Assembly: GCA_002839315.1 (NCBI GenBank)
Contig: PGXV01000005.1
Span: 155,269 to 219,268 of the forward strand
Source: Spirochaetae bacterium HGW-Spirochaetae-3
GTDB lineage: Bacteria > Spirochaetota > Spirochaetia > Treponematales > UBA12059
Direction: 5' to 3'
DNA length: 64,000 nt
In this document: positions 14,389-45,647 of the stretch, one piece after another
Position numbering within the stretch: position 1 is the stretch's first letter
How the letters are laid out: each line of letters opens with the position of its first letter
Notes under the pieces: generated by a model
Database searches by the model: none
What the model was told of the DNA's origin: nothing
What the model saw: the letters and a program-made list of their open reading frames with translations, nothing else
Made by a program: the position numbers and the translations under genes

Positions 14389-14781
14389 TCAGAATACCGC
14401 CTCCGCGTTCGCCTCCTCGCTTGGGGCCTTTTCCTCCGCCGTCGCGCGCGCGTCGTCCTCGTCGCGTTTAAACACGGGTTTGAACTCCACGTGCTCCGCG
14501 ACGATCTTTATGCGCGCCTGCGTCTTGCCCGCGCCGTCTTCCCAGCGATCCTGCTTGAGGCGTCCTACGACGCGTACGCCGCGGCCCTTCTTCAGTATCT
14601 CGCCGCAGGTCTGCGCCAGTTTCGACCACGCTTCGACTTCGAAGAACGATACTTCTTTCTCGGTCTGCTCGTTCTGCCTGTAGAACCTGTTCGACGCCAC
14701 CGCGAACGAGCAGACGTAGTTCCCGTTCGGGATGGTCTTGAGTTGCGGATCCCGTACGAGATTGCCCTCGATGATAATCAA
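14389..14781 (-). CDS. ssb: single-stranded DNA-binding protein, body of gene separated from its native 5-prime end by the prophage
   Basis: OB-fold sequence IIIEGNLVRDPQLKTIPNGNYVCSFAVASNRFY...FFEVEAWSKLAQ...GRLKQDRWED with an acidic tail. In this arrangement the ORF starts at a phage-derived TTG (14781) with no SD. The native RBS and first 7 codons are at 45617-45647. Confidence 0.85.
   Translation of the reverse strand: MIIIEGNLVRDPQLKTIPNGNYVCSFAVASNRFYRQNEQTEKEVSFFEVEAWSKLAQTCGEILKKGRGVRVVGRLKQDRWEDGAGKTQARIKIVAEHVEFKPVFKRDEDDARATAEEKAPSEEANAEAVF
14771..14775. repeat. attL crossover-region identity (ATGAT)
   Basis: cctcgATGATaatcaag. Sequence identity with attR is limited to these 5 nt, consistent with the very short crossover sites of serine integrases. 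Confidence 0.6.
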
Positions 14782-14804
14782 GTTGATTTATTCTTATGAA
14801 GAAG

Positions 14805-14822
14805 CCTATAATTTATTATAGG
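14805..14822. promoter_or_regulatory. palindrome CCTATAAT-TT-ATTATAGG carrying back-to-back TATAAT boxes
   Basis: Plus strand: TTGATT (14783-14788), 18 nt, TATAAT (14807-14812), pointing at int. Minus strand: TAGATA (14843-14838), 17 nt, TATAAT (14820-14815), pointing out of the prophage into ssb. Confidence 0.5.
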
Positions 14823-14829
14823 AGATTCC

Positions 14830-16416
14830 ATGATCGGTATCTACGTTCGCGTCTCAACTATACAGCAGAAAGACAACTACTCAACGGATGTTCAACGACA
14901 ACGGGGGATAGCGTTCGCGGAATCACGGGGCGAGCCATACACATTATACGACGAGGCGGCTTCGGCAGGGTCACTCGTACGCCCGGAGTTCCTTCGATTG
15001 CTCCATGACGTTGAGACCGATAAGGTTCATATCGTATGGGTAGTCGAATTCTCTCGCCTTACCAGAGATACCGAAGACGCCCTAGCCATCCGAAAGATAC
15101 TCGTTAAGCATAAAGCGCAAGTATTCGTTAACGATGTACCGATGGACTTATCCTCCCCAGAAGCCATTCTCTCATACAATATCAAATCCTCGGTCTCGGA
15201 ATATGAGCGATCAAACACTATTGCGAGGACTACTCGCTCCCGGAGACGTCAGATCGATGATGGCCATCAATCGTTCTCGTCGATCCTTGGATATGACTAT
15301 ACGTACCTCTCCACAGGGAAGAAGCAATGGGCTGTAAACGAGGCTGAGGCCGGTATCGTTCGGAAGATATTCACTCTTTACGGAGAGGGGTATTCGTATA
15401 TCAAGATCACGAACTTCTTGAATGATCACGGTTTTAGGACGAAGAGGAACAAAGCATTCACGATAACGACTATAGCGAAGATCCTTGACCATCCTGAATA
15501 CTTCGGACGGACTCACAATACAGCCGGGGAGCTAATCGAGTCGAAGATTTACCCTGCCATACTTGATCCTGAGCAATTCGGGGTACTTCAACAGCAGCAC
15601 CTACAACGGTCTACGAAGGCTATTCTATTCAGGGAAGCCAAGTCTGAGCTGTCAGGGATACTTAGATGTGCTCATTGTGACGCTCGGTACTACACTCACC
15701 GGGCTAAACCACTCACCCAAGCTAATCGTAGCGAGAATCTAATCACCTACTACAACCACTTACGTGAAAATACAGCTCAAAAGCAATGTAAAAACAAGCC
15801 AGTCTATATACGTAAGTCAACGATTGACGACTTCGTTTCATACTGTTATCGAGCGCATATACGGACAAAATCGCTCGTTAAGATGCTTATAGAGCAACGT
15901 GAGAAGGAATCTGTTCTGGCTGAGAAGGAGCTTGATGGCCAGGTCGTGACGATCAAAGCTCGAATCGAAGGGATAGAATCACGTCGTCAGAAGCTCATTG
16001 CCGGTATCGCAGAGGGTATCTATACCGTTGACGACATCCGAGTGAGCATTGAGAAGCTAAATAGTGAAAAAGTAGAGCAACAAACCGCGCTAAGCCGGAC
16101 AGAGAGTTCCCTACATGAGATGAGGCAAGATCTGGATGCGATGGTAGCCGCCTTCTCAGATCGGACTATAGAGGAGTATGAAAGCGCTGATGAACTGAAG
16201 CGCCGACGTATCTATCAGAACGTCATAAAATCGTTCGTTGTCGATGATCATTGGATACGATTGACGTTTATAACGGGGCGGGTTTACGAATGCCCTATAA
16301 AGCATATCCCACAGTACCTCAATGCGGTTCAAGCAATTGGTGAGACGAAAGGGTTTGAATCGAATCGGTATCGGTGGGGTGACCTCGCTATTGACAACAA
16401 TGCCTTTAAGAGATAA
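14830..16416 (+). CDS. large serine recombinase (phage integrase)
   Basis: AGGAG RBS. MIGIYVRVSTIQQ resolvase-type catalytic N-terminus (Ser10), recombinase domain, Cys cluster (CAHCDARYYTH...C) and long coiled coil; 528 aa. Confidence 0.95.
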   Translation: MIGIYVRVSTIQQKDNYSTDVQRQRGIAFAESRGEPYTLYDEAASAGSLVRPEFLRLLHDVETDKVHIVWVVEFSRLTRDTEDALAIRKILVKHKAQVFVNDVPMDLSSPEAILSYNIKSSVSEYERSNTIARTTRSRRRQIDDGHQSFSSILGYDYTYLSTGKKQWAVNEAEAGIVRKIFTLYGEGYSYIKITNFLNDHGFRTKRNKAFTITTIAKILDHPEYFGRTHNTAGELIESKIYPAILDPEQFGVLQQQHLQRSTKAILFREAKSELSGILRCAHCDARYYTHRAKPLTQANRSENLITYYNHLRENTAQKQCKNKPVYIRKSTIDDFVSYCYRAHIRTKSLVKMLIEQREKESVLAEKELDGQVVTIKARIEGIESRRQKLIAGIAEGIYTVDDIRVSIEKLNSEKVEQQTALSRTESSLHEMRQDLDAMVAAFSDRTIEEYESADELKRRRIYQNVIKSFVVDDHWIRLTFITGRVYECPIKHIPQYLNAVQAIGETKGFESNRYRWGDLAIDNNAFKR

Positions 16417-16456
16417 AATCCGGATAAATAAGTCTGTTAAGTCTCGGGAGTAAGTA

Positions 16457-17029
16457 ATGGCAACAAAAGATTCTGTCTTAGCTCTTTTAAGCATCGAGGC
16501 ATCCACAGGCTATGAGTTGAAGAAACGATTATCGGATTCACCAGCATTTTCTTGGGTCGAAAGCAGCCAAGTGTATAAAGTTCTAGACAGCTTTCAAAAA
16601 GAAGGTCTAGCAGAGGTTGAGGTTGATACGAGTAACGATCTTGGACGGAAGAAGTATAGCATCACTCCAAAGGGTGAGTTCCAGGTTAAGTTGTGGCTTG
16701 AGGATAAGCCCGAGCTTCCTGAGATCAAAAACATATTCCAGCAGAAGATTGTGATTGCAGCAGCCAAGAATGAATATTCATTGGCTCAGGAAATTACTCG
16801 AGACTACAGGGATAGCTTGTTAGCCGAGATCAAGGTTGAAATCCAAAAGCAAAAACGTATAGAGAAAATTCGATCATCCGATGAAGATTTCGGAGATGTT
16901 TCTTCCTTTCCGAAGCCAAGAAAGCATTTTCAAGACGCCATTCCAGATGCAGTGAGTTCTTATCGCTTGGATATGTTACAAGCAGAGCTACAGTGGGTCG
17001 AAAAAATCCAACAATCTCTCGGTATTTAA
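16457..17029 (+). CDS. PadR family transcriptional regulator (candidate prophage repressor)
   Basis: N-terminal winged helix VLALLSIEASTGYELKKRL...SQVYKVLDSFQKEGLAEV...KKYSITPKGE typical of PadR, followed by a helical C-terminal domain. Confidence 0.8.
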   Translation: MATKDSVLALLSIEASTGYELKKRLSDSPAFSWVESSQVYKVLDSFQKEGLAEVEVDTSNDLGRKKYSITPKGEFQVKLWLEDKPELPEIKNIFQQKIVIAAAKNEYSLAQEITRDYRDSLLAEIKVEIQKQKRIEKIRSSDEDFGDVSSFPKPRKHFQDAIPDAVSSYRLDMLQAELQWVEKIQQSLGI

Positions 17030-45073: not shown

Positions 45074-45453
45074 ACCGAGTCCTCGGGTAATTCAGTTGCT
45101 GCTATGGGATCAAAGTCCCTTGCTCGCCACCATGAGAAATGTGTCCTTTTTCCCGTCTTTAAGATAAGTCCTGACTCTTCAGTTAGCCTAATCTTAGCAA
45201 CGAATCGTTCTGGTCGATTTGGAATCCTTATTAAGTGTTCGCATGGAGTAGGCTCGGTGGAAACTGAGAGCGAACGCGCTCTACATTCGTCGACATTAAA
45301 TAGTTGCTTCGGGTACATGACCCGTTGAGATTCAAAATCATCTTCAGTTGGAGGAAGAGTCCTAACGGCCCTATAGATTATCATATTACTTGGCAGTACT
45401 GCTTCTTGAGGGGGGCACTGTTCTGGTAACTCATCATGCCATTGCATATCCAT
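45070..45453 (-). CDS. 127-aa protein of unknown function (proximal gene of the cassette)
   Basis: GAAGG RBS. N-terminus MDMQWHDELPEQCPPQEAVLPSNMIIYRAV... Soluble, with three Cys and a PCEH element. No family recognised. Confidence 0.75.
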   Translation of the reverse strand: MDMQWHDELPEQCPPQEAVLPSNMIIYRAVRTLPPTEDDFESQRVMYPKQLFNVDECRARSLSVSTEPTPCEHLIRIPNRPERFVAKIRLTEESGLILKTGKRTHFSWWRARDFDPIAATELPEDSV

Positions 45454-45499
45454 TTTAACCTTCTCTATGCATCTTTTATATCAATCTTATACTACGTGC

Positions 45500-45527
45500 A
45501 TTCTACCTTCTGAGGATAGTCTGTCAA
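45500..45527 (-). promoter_or_regulatory. near-consensus sigma70-type promoter of the two-gene cassette
   Basis: Minus strand TTGACA (45527-45522), 16-nt spacer, TAGAAT (45505-45500), about 45 nt upstream of ATG 45453. Confidence 0.6.
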
Positions 45528-45611
45528 GATTAATTCCTGAGTGCTGATAGTATATTGAATTAAGCTTGGAATATCTCAAAAACAATATATAATAATAATA
45601 AAAAAGACAGT

Positions 45612-45616
45612 ATGAT
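45612..45616. repeat. attR crossover-region identity (ATGAT)
   Basis: gacagtATGATggaattgag. The GC-rich host sequence resumes about 25 nt to the right. Confidence 0.6.
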
Positions 45617-45647
45617 GGAATTGAGATTGTTCAACACGATACCCTCC
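45617..45647 (-). pseudogene. ssb: detached 5-prime end of ssb (RBS, GTG start and first 7 codons)
   Basis: Minus strand GGAGGgtatcGTG TTG AAC AAT CTC AAT TCC then ATCAT. In the lysogen it runs on into phage DNA and stops after about 23 codons. Confidence 0.7.

What the first reader, a model, noticed from the sequence alone, without database searches (positions are those of the whole stretch)
14389..45647. Prophage inserted inside the 5-prime end of ssb by a large serine recombinase; removing it in silico rebuilds an intact SSB reading frame
Left junction: ccctcgATGATaatcaag (14771-14775). Right junction: gacagtATGATggaattgag (45612-45616).

Joining the GC-rich flanks across one ATGAT gives, on the minus strand, GGAGGgtatc GTG TTG AAC AAT CTC AAT TCC ATC ATC GAG GGC AAT CTC. 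That is an SD plus VLNNLNSIIEGNLVRDPQLK, a normal OB-fold N-terminus.

In the lysogen the SD, start codon and 7 codons are 30.8 kb away from the gene body. The body now begins with phage-derived TTG ATT, which preserves the hydrophobic first strand (M-IIIEGNL) but has no SD.

The first phage gene is a 528-aa serine integrase. Gene-splitting serine-integrase elements that work as excision switches are established (skin/sigK, SPbeta/spsM, A118-like/comK), but I am not aware of ssb as a target.

This ssb is not in an rpsF-ssb-rpsR setting. Its tail ends EEANAEAVF rather than the canonical DDDIPF, so it may be a secondary paralogue whose activity is controlled by prophage excision.
Basis: partly seen in the sequence, partly recalled or inferred. 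Interest (0 to 1): 0.8.

Follow-up and report, generated by a model that had tools for sequence, protein, structure and literature searches.

The report
Serine-integrase prophage splitting a spirochaete ssb gene
A complete-looking 30.8-kb phage sits inside the ninth codon of a single-strand-DNA-binding protein gene of a groundwater spirochaete, placed there by a serine integrase whose relatives hit the same spot in other spirochaetes; this is a new target for a well-known kind of gene-splitting prophage, not a new mechanism.

Summary
A 30,838-bp, low-GC (0.42 vs 0.62-0.65) HK97-type prophage lies between window positions 14776 and 45611. It separates the SD, GTG start and first 8 codons of an ssb gene from its 128-codon body. 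Five prophage-free relatives keep the same neighbours on both sides with an intact gene. The lysogen form occurs in several independent assemblies, so this is not a chimera.

The corrected rebuild is 136 aa with a 2-bp AT crossover.

New result: five further integrases (35-57% identical) also abut fragments of this ssb family. All fit one register, with core AT in Ile-Ile-Ile hosts and CT in Ile-Leu-Val hosts.

ssb is not an unprecedented prophage target: phiB6 splits ssbB near its 5' end in Streptococcus mitis. The excision-switch and secondary-paralogue ideas remain untested. Every assembled copy of this strain is lysogenic, and the prophage was inherited vertically. The phage-supplied TTG start is not conserved in related phages.

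Verdict: a real new member of a known kind, of moderate interest.

The parts
14389..14781 (-). ssb body: truncated ORF of 130 codons. It starts at the phage-derived TTG (14779-14781) and ATT; host sequence begins at the core (14774-14775).
   Evidence: Translation gives LIIIEGNLVRDPQLK...AEAVF. Pfam SSB E=3.8e-29 for the rebuilt protein. Identical to P0001, P0151 and P0149 in public assemblies.
14771..14775 (.). attL junction. The inferred 2-bp crossover core AT is 14774-14775. Phage DNA starts at 14776.
   Evidence: Comparison with empty sites AATTCC ATC ATC ATC GAGGGC and with five related junctions.
14776..14829 (.). Int-proximal phage att arm (gene orientation ...AAGAATAAATCAAC-TTG-ATT) and the int promoter region. 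Promoter-like sites: TTGATT-18-TATAAT on + (14783-14812) and an outward-facing TAGATA-17-TATAAT on - (14843-14815).
   Evidence: The arm motif AAATAAATCAAC-NNN-ATT is shared with L008 and L009. Related arms occur in L099 and L100. Promoter scan (consensus matches only).
14830..16416 (+). Large serine recombinase (integrase), 528 aa, N-terminus MIGIYVRVSTIQQ.
   Evidence: Pfam Resolvase 9e-22, Recombinase 5e-16, Zn_ribbon_recom 3.5e-7. Only 28 homologues in 5.8 billion clusters.
16457..25260 (+). Early and replication region: PadR-like regulator (16457-17029), DUF5131 (17142-17891), VapE-like primase/helicase (20696-22090), thioredoxin-domain protein (22260-22673), two HNH endonucleases (23070-23396, 24910-25260), plus unannotated ORFs including 23919-24797 on the minus strand.
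25370..39608 (+). Packaging and virion module: TerS, TerL (25983-27749), portal (27769-28998), head protease (29028-29819), major head protein (29834-30922), head-tail adaptor (31052-31585), tail protein (32531-33490), tape measure (34156-36282) and a 1107-aa distal tail protein (36285-39608).
   Evidence: Pfam and PHROG hits.
39610..43767 (+). Late and accessory region, including a DUF261 protein (40431-40928) and a RadC-like JAB protein (42446-42820).
43910..45453 (-). Two-gene accessory cassette next to attR: a 127-aa protein (45070-45453), then a 387-aa DUF6575 protein (43910-45073). Candidate PD-T4-10-like defence pair. It is on the same strand as, and downstream of, the orphaned ssb promoter, SD and 5' codons. 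It also has its own promoter-like site, TTGACA-16-TAGAAT (45527-45500).
   Evidence: PADLOC PD-T4-10_A E=2.3e-4 and PD-T4-10_B E=1.1e-7. Pfam DUF6575. Promoter scan.
45612..45616 (.). attR junction. The inferred core AT is 45612-45613. Phage DNA ends at 45611.
   Evidence: The collinear block with L002/L003 ends at 45612.
45614..45647 (-). Orphaned ssb 5' end: SD GGAGG (45647-45643), GTG start (45637-45635) and 8 codons (V/M)LNNLNSI (to 45614). It now reads into phage DNA as a 25-codon ORF, VLNNLNSIILSFLLLLYIVFEIFQA*.
   Evidence: The same SD, spacer, GTG and codons are present in the empty sites L001-L005 and L019-L022.

Best explanation
A temperate HK97-type siphovirus (30,838 bp counting one copy of the core) integrated into a conserved, stand-alone ssb gene of a groundwater spirochaete. 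NCBI names the matching protein as from 'Spirochaetae bacterium HGW-Spirochaetae-3'.

Integration was attP x attB recombination catalysed by the phage's large serine recombinase. The exchange took place at a 2-bp core (AT) in codon 9:
- attB: ...AAT TCC ATC|AT|C ATC GAG...
- attP: ...AAATCAACTTGATT|AT|ACTGTCTTTTTT...

The choice of site belongs to the integrase clade, not to this one event. Five other elements, with integrases 35-57% identical, sit at the same place in other spirochaetes' ssb genes. The target is the DNA encoding the near-invariant N-terminus LNS-I-x-x-EGNL-RDP. Such a sequence recurs almost unchanged across hundreds of host species.

Integration removes the promoter, SD, start codon and first 8 codons from the body. 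My inference is that the gene is silenced or strongly down-regulated in the lysogen, that the host tolerates this, and that precise excision (which would need an unidentified recombination directionality factor) would restore it exactly.

Shown: the anatomy, the empty sites, target conservation and vertical inheritance. Inferred: the position of the crossover, loss of expression, and dispensability of the gene. I see no evidence that excision is used as a regulated switch.
For: Anatomy:
- Junction sequences and the GC step.
- Full phage gene set with an LSR at the edge.

Empty sites:
- L001-L005 carry lipase - 345-aa gene - GntR - intact 135-aa SSB - (Fer4) - IclR - binding protein. These are the same neighbours as the window flanks.
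- They align as two blocks that end at the junctions.

Not an artefact:
- The truncated form is the only allele of this strain. It is found on JGI contigs of 422,881 and 71,636 bp plus a third contig, in NCBI PKL25012.1/PKL74150.1, and on five Logan/ENA contigs.
- Two lysogen strains differ by 11 mismatches in 10.5 kb on the phage side and 20 in 9.9 kb on the host side.

Crossover:
- 88 of 88 intact genes have 9 nt between the Ser and Glu codons, and none has 6.
- With that attB, attR matches up to ATCAT and attL from ATCATCGAG. Two registers fit this spacing, both with a 2-bp AT core: one in the first Ile codon and one in the second. The related junctions favour the second.

Clade-wide target:
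- L008 (57%), L009 (55%), L099 (43%), L012 (40%) and L100 (35%) all abut ssb fragments.
- One register fits all: phage arm (T/A)AAC-NNN-AYY | core | host. The core is AT in Ile-Ile-Ile hosts and CT in Ile-Leu-Val hosts.
- L099 has ACT at the first triplet. That codon is never seen in the 88 intact genes, so the triplet is phage-derived.
- L012 is inverted. Its core is complemented relative to the conserved int-proximal arm motif (GTTAATT vs GTTGATT). This is what the central-dinucleotide polarity rule predicts (PMC3783163, its refs 43 and 44).
Against: - No attB or attP junction from this strain or phage could be found. Two metagenome scans and four IMG/VR scans returned nothing. Integration chemistry and present-day excision competence are therefore inferred.
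- The inferred core AT is palindromic. For phiC31 and Bxb1 a palindromic core abolishes orientation control.
- Whether the host has a second ssb is unknown. If this were the only copy, the silencing inference would be wrong.
- This phage supplies an in-frame TTG-ATT that rebuilds M-IIIEGNL, and a promoter-like site faces the body. Some expression cannot be excluded.
Confidence: 0.8

Rival explanations
1. Excision switch. The prophage is a regulatory element like skin/sigK, SPbeta/spsM or the A118-like phage in comK. The ssb copy is off in the lysogen and is turned on by programmed, non-lytic excision under particular conditions.
For: The element splits the ORF, and precise LSR excision would restore it exactly. 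The site is conserved across a whole integrase clade. The ssb body shows no decay.
Against: I found no empty-site allele of this strain in any assembly or protein collection searched. The prophage is inherited vertically. I know of no terminal differentiation or comparable programme in these spirochaetes (my own knowledge). No recombination directionality factor was identified. An intact body is expected anyway, given only 0.1-0.2% divergence since insertion.
Confidence: 0.12
2. Anti-transformation (anti-'chromosomal curing') strategy. The gene is an SsbB-like paralogue used for incoming ssDNA, and the phage clade targets it to disable recombination that could delete the prophage. This has been proposed for streptococcal prophages in ssbB and comYC.
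For: There is a direct precedent: prophage insertion near the 5' end of ssbB in S. mitis and S. pneumoniae (PMC2828477, PMC12637031, PMC12378983). LSR target genes are enriched for competence genes (PMC10083194). The protein is short (125-142 aa) and stand-alone, never next to rpsF/rpsR.
Against: No competence genes lie nearby. The conserved partner is an IclR regulator. The family is very strongly conserved (60-94% identity across families), as a housekeeping gene would be. Paralogue status is untested. None of the 80 best species-representative genomes has the site occupied, so occupancy is rare.
Confidence: 0.15
3. Function-preserving integration. The phage arm replaces the gene's 5' end (TTG start plus Ile) and supplies a promoter. 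The lysogen then still makes a near-full-length SSB (M-IIIEGNL...), possibly under phage control.
For: TTG ATT ATC ATC GAG rebuilds the beta-1 strand. A promoter-like TAGATA-17-TATAAT faces the body. PDB alignments start at L5/N6, so only about 2 residues of the fold are lost. Phage arms in L009, L099 and L100 also encode I-N-S/I-N-Y/V-N-S-like mimics of L-N-S.
Against: There is no SD. The TTG is not conserved: L009 has only the host's own GTG, which gives M-EGNL, and L008 has no canonical start at all. All three close arms carry an in-frame TAA just upstream. The similarity between the P arm and the B arm is expected anyway, because the same integrase binds both.
Confidence: 0.15
4. Assembly chimera: a low-GC phage contig mis-joined into a high-GC host contig.
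For: The 20-point GC difference is unusually large.
Against: The same junctions occur in independent JGI, NCBI and Logan/ENA assemblies, with strain-level SNPs on both sides. The two junctions complement each other to the base and rebuild a conserved gene. The same GC step occurs at the same gene in L009 and L012.
Confidence: 0.01

Closest known systems
Streptococcus mitis B6 prophage phiB6 (and rarer pneumococcal prophages) integrated in ssbB
   Same: A prophage disrupts a single-strand-binding protein gene 'near its 5'-terminal end'. attP lies close to the integrase gene. The lysogen is viable (PMC2828477, PMC12637031, PMC12378983).
   Different: The host is a Firmicute and ssbB is a known competence-induced paralogue. 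That system has a 9-bp common core (PMC2828477), against 2 bp here. I did not check the integrase type of phiB6. Here the host is a spirochaete, the integrase is a large serine recombinase, and the role of the ssb copy is unknown.
Gene-splitting large-serine-recombinase elements: skin/sigK (B. subtilis, C. difficile), SPbeta/spsM (SprA/SprB), A118-like phage in Listeria comK
   Same: An LSR-bearing phage or phage-like element sits inside a coding sequence. Precise excision reconstitutes the ORF (PMC5025042, PMC5499854).
   Different: In those systems, excision is experimentally tied to a host programme (sporulation, phagosomal escape) and a directionality factor is known. Here there is no evidence of regulated excision, no identified RDF, and a different target gene and phylum.
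Site-specific LSR clusters that share one target gene family (Durrant et al. 2022, e.g. comM/Mg-chelatase, prolyl isomerase)
   Same: Distantly related LSRs (35-57% identity here) integrate at one conserved position within one gene family. This is the pattern used there to call an LSR site-specific (PMC10083194).
   Different: SSB/PF00436 is not mentioned in that paper's text or in its held supplementary files. This clade is tiny, with 28 homologues in 5.8 billion protein clusters, and is spirochaete-associated.
Bxb1 / phiC31 central-dinucleotide rule
   Same: The overlap between attB and attP is 2 bp. The core co-varies with the host sequence (AT vs CT). An element with the complemented core (L012) is inserted the other way round.
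   Different: The core inferred for the window phage, and for L100, is the palindrome AT. In those model systems a palindromic core abolishes orientation control. Nothing was tested biochemically here.

Membership tests
Large serine recombinase (phage serine integrase) | N-terminal resolvase catalytic domain with the nucleophilic serine | tested here: met
   PF00239 E=9e-22, residues 4-145. The N-terminus MIGIYVRVSTIQQ carries the Y-x-R-V-S-T motif.
Large serine recombinase (phage serine integrase) | C-terminal recombinase domain plus zinc-ribbon domain | tested here: met
   PF07508 E=5e-16 (residues 172-256). PF13408 E=3.5e-7 (residues 274-336). Cys280, Cys283 and Cys320 are invariant in the 8-member alignment.
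Large serine recombinase (phage serine integrase) | Short att sites exchanging at a 2-bp central dinucleotide shared by attP and attB | tested here: met
   In silico only. Against the 9-nt attB found in all 88 intact genes, the attL and attR overlap is exactly 2 bp in either of the two registers that fit. The same register fits five related junctions.
Large serine recombinase (phage serine integrase) | Non-palindromic central dinucleotide that sets orientation (typical of characterised members, not strictly defining) | tested here: not met
   The core is AT in the window and L100. It is CT in L008, L009, L099 and L012. The rule is from PMC3783163, its refs 43 and 44.
Large serine recombinase (phage serine integrase) | Catalyses attP x attB recombination; excision requires an RDF | not testable with these tools
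   No biochemical assay was possible, and no RDF is recognisable by homology.
Intact temperate tailed phage (HK97-type siphovirus prophage) | Complete packaging, head and tail gene set plus an integrase, bounded by att sites | tested here: met
   TerS, TerL, portal, protease, major head protein, adaptor, tail protein, tape measure and integrase are all present as uninterrupted ORFs.
Phage regulatory switch / active lysogeny (skin-sigK, SPbeta-spsM, comK phage) | The element interrupts an ORF, and precise excision restores it | tested here: met
   In-silico excision gives the 136-aa SSB, with an attB identical to that of relatives.
Phage regulatory switch / active lysogeny (skin-sigK, SPbeta-spsM, comK phage) | Excision occurs in a defined host state and restores a function needed then | not testable with these tools
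   No empty-site allele of this strain was found in the collections searched. This is absence of evidence only.
Bacterial SSB (PF00436 OB-fold) | OB-fold ssDNA-binding domain | tested here: met
   PF00436 E=3.8e-29. The best PDB matches are Thermus and Deinococcus SSB at E about 1e-27.
Housekeeping SSB of the rpsF-ssb-rpsR type | The gene lies between rpsF and rpsR | tested here: not met
   No S6 or S18 hit in any of the 98 loci then held (86 of them carry an intact gene of this family). IclR is adjacent in 54 of them. This context is not universal for primary ssb genes, so the result does not by itself show that the gene is a paralogue.
Housekeeping SSB of the rpsF-ssb-rpsR type | Acidic C-terminal tip ending ...D-I-P-F | tested here: inconclusive
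   The terminal Phe is invariant and acidic residues precede it, but the tip reads AEAVF, EPVF, QPVF or EPAF.
SsbB-like secondary SSB targeted by prophage (phiB6 type) | A second ssb copy exists in the same genome | not testable with these tools
   Only a 64-kb window and 4-10 kb flanks were readable. There is no second ssb in the window. One MAG (DATKUF01) has two family members, L053 and L056.
PD-T4-10 anti-phage system | Adjacent A and B genes matching both models | tested here: inconclusive
   A at E=2.3e-4 and B at E=1.1e-7, in the order A then B on one strand. The scores are weak and the B match covers only residues 11-130.

The most novel reading that the evidence does not exclude
A small clade of spirochaete phages has specialised on one ssb gene as a selected target rather than a neutral landing pad. 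On this reading it would either disable an SsbB-like recombination or transformation function that could cure the prophage, or act as a reversible switch on that copy. In this reading the attP core tracks the host's codon (AT or CT), and the palindromic AT core allows insertion in either orientation. It would be the first such phage-host gene conflict described in Spirochaetota.
Probability: 0.2. Interest if true: 0.6.

Novelty: new member of a known kind. Interest (0 to 1): 0.4.

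Why it matters
This adds a defined integrase / attB / attP set from a phylum with almost no characterised temperate phages or genetic tools. 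The predicted attB lies in a sequence conserved in at least 479 spirochaete species-representative genomes. If the integrase is active, it would be a candidate integration tool for these organisms.

Serine-integrase prophages that split genes were already known, and ssb paralogues were already known as prophage targets in streptococci. This locus brings the two together in a different phylum. The six related junctions are a natural experiment on the central-dinucleotide rule: the core co-varies with the host codon, and one element with a complemented core is inserted the other way round. It does not reveal a new mechanism.

Tried and rejected
- Searched for a free attP in IMG/VR with a gapped pattern: 0 hits.
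- Searched JGI metagenome contigs with a degenerate pattern matching attB, attP, attL or attR of this strain: 0 hits. The pattern does find attL and attR in the window. A plain 23-mer from the ssb body also gave 0 hits. That collection therefore lacks this organism, and the negatives say nothing about excision.
- Looked for relatives of the integrase, the integrase alignment and TerL in IMG/VR: none.
- Looked for a phage-encoded SSB or a second ssb in the window with tblastn, using the family SSB and E. coli SSB as queries: only the split gene was found. Pfam, PHROG and PADLOC scans of 48 phage and flanking ORFs found no SSB apart from the split gene.
- Tried to settle whether the host has a second ssb. 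The single genome-collection scan went on the family itself, and the literature search for rpsF/rpsR/ssb in Treponema returned nothing. This is unresolved.
- Tried to read the native attB of the L008, L009, L099 and L012 hosts from loci in hand. Only L100's host has a 100% match, to L023 and L038, and that match is uninformative at the disputed base.
- Rejected the 5-bp-core, 135-aa rebuild.
- Rejected a crossover at the first Ile codon, because L099 has ACT there and all three close phages share ATT.
- Rejected an assembly chimera.
- 'Promoter capture' of the attR-proximal cassette by the orphaned ssb promoter remains possible but is unnecessary, because the cassette has its own strong promoter-like site.

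Full report

Yes. The left junction reads ccctcgATGATaatcaag (ATGAT at 14771-14775) and the right junction gacagtATGATggaattgag (45612-45616). GC content is 0.624 to the left, 0.419 between the junctions and 0.646 to the right.

On the minus strand, the ORF at 14389-14781 translates to LIIIEGNLVRDPQLK...EEANAEAVF. Just outside the right junction lie GGAGG, a 5-nt spacer, GTG and the codons for LNNLNSI. Joined, the two pieces make one frame that matches Pfam SSB (PF00436) at E=3.8e-29.

The interior is a phage:
- a PadR-like regulator, a DUF5131 protein, a VapE-like primase/helicase and two HNH endonucleases
- TerS, TerL, portal, head protease, major head protein, adaptor, tail protein, tape measure and a 1107-aa distal tail protein
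- a DUF261 protein and a RadC-like protein

There is no tRNA in the window.

**2. Independent evidence that this is an insertion**

A search with the rebuilt protein returned thousands of relatives. The named ones are nearly all spirochaetes. The 100%-identical hit, P0001, is the truncated 130-aa form. Many relatives at 92-94% identity are full-length proteins of 134-135 aa.

Their contigs (L001-L005) carry lipase - 345-aa gene - GntR - SSB - (ferredoxin) - IclR - periplasmic binding protein. This is the order found in the window's two flanks, with nothing between GntR and the SSB body. blastn of L002 and L003 against the window gives two collinear blocks of 5-6 kb at 83-88% identity. They end at window positions 45612 and about 14786.

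The lysogen form itself is present in several independent assemblies:
- JGI contigs of 422,881 and 71,636 bp, plus a third contig
- NCBI MAG proteins PKL25012.1 and PKL74150.1 ('Spirochaetae bacterium HGW-Spirochaetae-3')
- five Logan/ENA contigs of up to 368 kb

Two lysogen strains differ by 11 mismatches in 10.5 kb on the phage side and 20 in 9.9 kb on the host side. The prophage has therefore been carried vertically through strain divergence. An assembly chimera is excluded.

**3. A correction: the crossover**

Every full-length relative reads MLNNLNS-III/IIV-EGNL. At the DNA level, the empty sites read AATTCC ATC ATC ATC GAGGGC. A regular-expression survey found exactly 9 nt between the Ser and Glu codons in all 88 intact loci, and 3, 6, 12 or 15 nt in none.

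That leaves 6 nt and gives a 135-aa protein with Ser-Ile-Ile-Glu.

With a 9-nt attB, only two registers are possible. In both, the overlap between attL and attR is the dinucleotide AT. Joining w[..14775] to w[45614..] gives CCCTCGATGAT|GATGGAATTGAG. This is identical to the relatives' site, and the protein is 136 aa. On this reading:
- attB is ...AAT TCC ATC|AT|C ATC GAG...
- attP is ...AAATCAACTTGATT|AT|ACTGTCTTTTTT...
- the phage genome is 30,838 bp

A 2-bp overlap is what a serine recombinase's staggered cut requires (established knowledge; see PMC3783163).

**4. The target belongs to an integrase clade**

The integrase has only 28 detectable homologues in 5.8 billion protein clusters. I looked at the surroundings of the seven closest.

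| Locus | Integrase identity | Junction type | Sequence (gene orientation) |
|---|---|---|---|
| window | 100% | attL | aaataaatcaac ttg ATT ATC ATC GAGGGC |
| L008 | 57% | attL | aaataaatcaac ggg ATT CTC GTC GAGGGC |
| L009 | 55% | attL | aaataaatcaac tct ATT CTC GTG GAAGGC |
| L099 | 43% | attL | ctaaataaac tat ACT CTA GTC GAGGGG |
| L100 | 35% | attL | tacgtaaac tcc ATC ATC ATC GAAGGC |
| L012 | 40% | attR | GGAGGAACTC ATG AAC AAT CTC AAT TCC ATC CTC ctt gcg |

- In L009 the SSB body and IclR are next door, and GC drops from 0.60 to 0.35 at the junction.
- L012 carries the opposite junction, with int downstream.
- P0124 (43%) lies on a phage contig with no junction visible.
- P0127 (33%) sits next to a tRNA synthetase gene and has no ssb nearby.

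One register fits all six ssb junctions: phage arm (T/A)AAC-NNN-AYY, then a 2-nt core, then host DNA. The core is AT where the host encodes Ile-Ile-Ile (window, L100). It is CT where the host encodes Ile-Leu-Val (L008, L009, L099, L012).

Two points place the triplet before the core in the phage rather than the host. It is ATT in all three close phages, whereas the window host's nearest relatives all use ATC. And it is ACT in L099, a codon never seen at that position in 88 intact genes. This favours a crossover in the second Ile codon over the first.

L012 is inserted the other way round relative to ssb. Its int-proximal arm keeps the same motif at the same distance from the core (GTTAATT vs GTTGATT), but the core is complemented relative to that arm. 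The rule that the central dinucleotide alone sets polarity predicts exactly this (PMC3783163, citing Ghosh 2003 and Smith 2004).

The one oddity is that AT is a palindrome. In the model systems, a palindromic core removes orientation control.

**5. What kind of ssb is this?**

- The family is found in 479 species-representative genomes, with Spirochaetota names: Treponematales, Treponemataceae, Rectinemataceae, Spirochaetales and Sediminispirochaeta.
- It is a stand-alone gene, convergent with an IclR regulator in at least 54 loci. It was next to rpsF or rpsR in none of the 98 loci I then held.
- It is short (125-142 aa) and highly conserved. L5, N6, S7, E11, G12, N13, L14, R16, D17 and P18 are invariant in a 19-member alignment. 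That explains why the DNA here makes a dependable landing site.
- The C-terminal Phe is invariant and preceded by acidic residues. The tail is a variant SSB tip rather than evidence of a degenerate paralogue.
- None of the best 80 genomes has the site occupied.
- I could not determine whether these genomes also have an rpsF-linked ssb. There is no second ssb in the window and no recognisable phage SSB.

**6. Consequences for the gene**

In the lysogen, the promoter region, SD, GTG and first 8 codons are 30.8 kb from the body. They now open a 25-codon ORF that runs into phage DNA.

The body begins with phage-derived TTG ATT, which recreates M-IIIEGNL, but there is no SD. A promoter-like site does face it. 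This rescue is not conserved. L009 offers only the host's own GTG, giving M-EGNL without the first strand. L008 has no canonical start. All three close arms carry an in-frame TAA just upstream.

My best reading is that the gene is silenced or much reduced and that the host tolerates this. I hold the dispensability step at only about 0.55.

**7. Comparison with what is known**

- Serine-integrase elements that split genes are well established: skin/sigK (PMC5025042) and SPbeta/spsM (PMC5499854).
- Distantly related LSRs sharing one target gene is the recognised signature of site-specific LSR clusters. Their targets are enriched for competence genes (PMC10083194). SSB is not mentioned in that paper's text or its held supplements.
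[quoted passage not shown] Pneumococcal prophages use the same site, which is interpreted as blocking transformation (PMC12637031, PMC12378983).
- The present case is therefore a new member of a known kind: a new phylum, a new LSR clade and a new LSR-target pairing.

**8. The switch hypothesis**

Nothing here supports or excludes regulated excision. Every assembled copy of this strain is the lysogen form. The scans that might have found attB or attP hit a collection that does not contain this organism at all. The intact state of the ssb body carries no information, given the small divergence since insertion.

**Verdict**

Novelty: new member of a known kind. Interest 0.4.

Noticed in passing
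window 14776-45611; L009 7100-18719; L012 8400-12859: The phage is about 21 GC points below its host (0.42 vs 0.62-0.65). The same large gap recurs in two related element-host pairs: L009 at 0.35 vs 0.60, and L012 at 0.47 vs 0.65. A gap this size, persisting across independent pairs, is unusual for temperate phages and is unexplained.
   Followed up: partly
window 43910-45453 (-): Two adjacent minus-strand genes next to attR (127 aa, then a 387-aa DUF6575 protein) weakly match PADLOC PD-T4-10_A (E=2.3e-4) and PD-T4-10_B (E=1.1e-7), in that order. This is a candidate prophage-borne defence pair. It lies directly downstream of the orphaned ssb promoter, SD and 5' codons, and also has its own TTGACA-16-TAGAAT promoter-like site at 45527-45500.
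   Followed up: partly
window 14774-14775 and 45612-45613; L100 about 45-60: The inferred crossover dinucleotide is the palindrome AT in the window phage and in L100, whereas four related elements use CT. In phiC31 and Bxb1 a palindromic core abolishes orientation control. How polarity is kept here, if it is, is unexplained.
   Followed up: partly
window 12463-12478 (within 11943-13147, - strand): The window carries an 8-nt tandem duplication (GTGTTGTA GTGTTGTA) that is absent from the otherwise identical JGI contig L006. It frameshifts the periplasmic binding-protein gene into two ORFs (156 and 235 aa, against an intact 388 aa in L006). This is a strain variant or an assembly or consensus error.
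   Followed up: yes
window 17142-17891 (+): The DUF5131 protein next to the PadR regulator matches PADLOC candidate-system models PDC-M41B and PDC-M30B at E about 1e-37. No partner gene was examined.
   Followed up: no
window 40431-40928 (+): A 165-aa phage protein matches Pfam DUF261 (E=9e-9). From my own memory, this family is associated with Borrelia cp32-type prophage plasmids. If so, it hints at shared ancestry among spirochaete phages.
   Followed up: no
L053 and L056 (contigs DATKUF010000316.1 and DATKUF010000217.1): One MAG (Spirochaetia bacterium SMAG_U14100) carries two different members of this ssb family, at 64% and 62% identity to the query. This is either a true duplication or bin contamination.
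   Followed up: no
window 14228-14277 vs L007 about 10497-10554: The second lysogen strain (L007) differs from the window by an indel of about 50-57 nt just downstream of the ssb stop codon, in the ferredoxin-like/IclR intergenic region.
   Followed up: no
P0150 (JGI contig of 3,405 bp): One lysogen variant of the truncated SSB has an in-frame 3-residue deletion (RQN) inside the OB fold. This may be a first sign of relaxed constraint on the split gene, or a sequencing variant.
   Followed up: no
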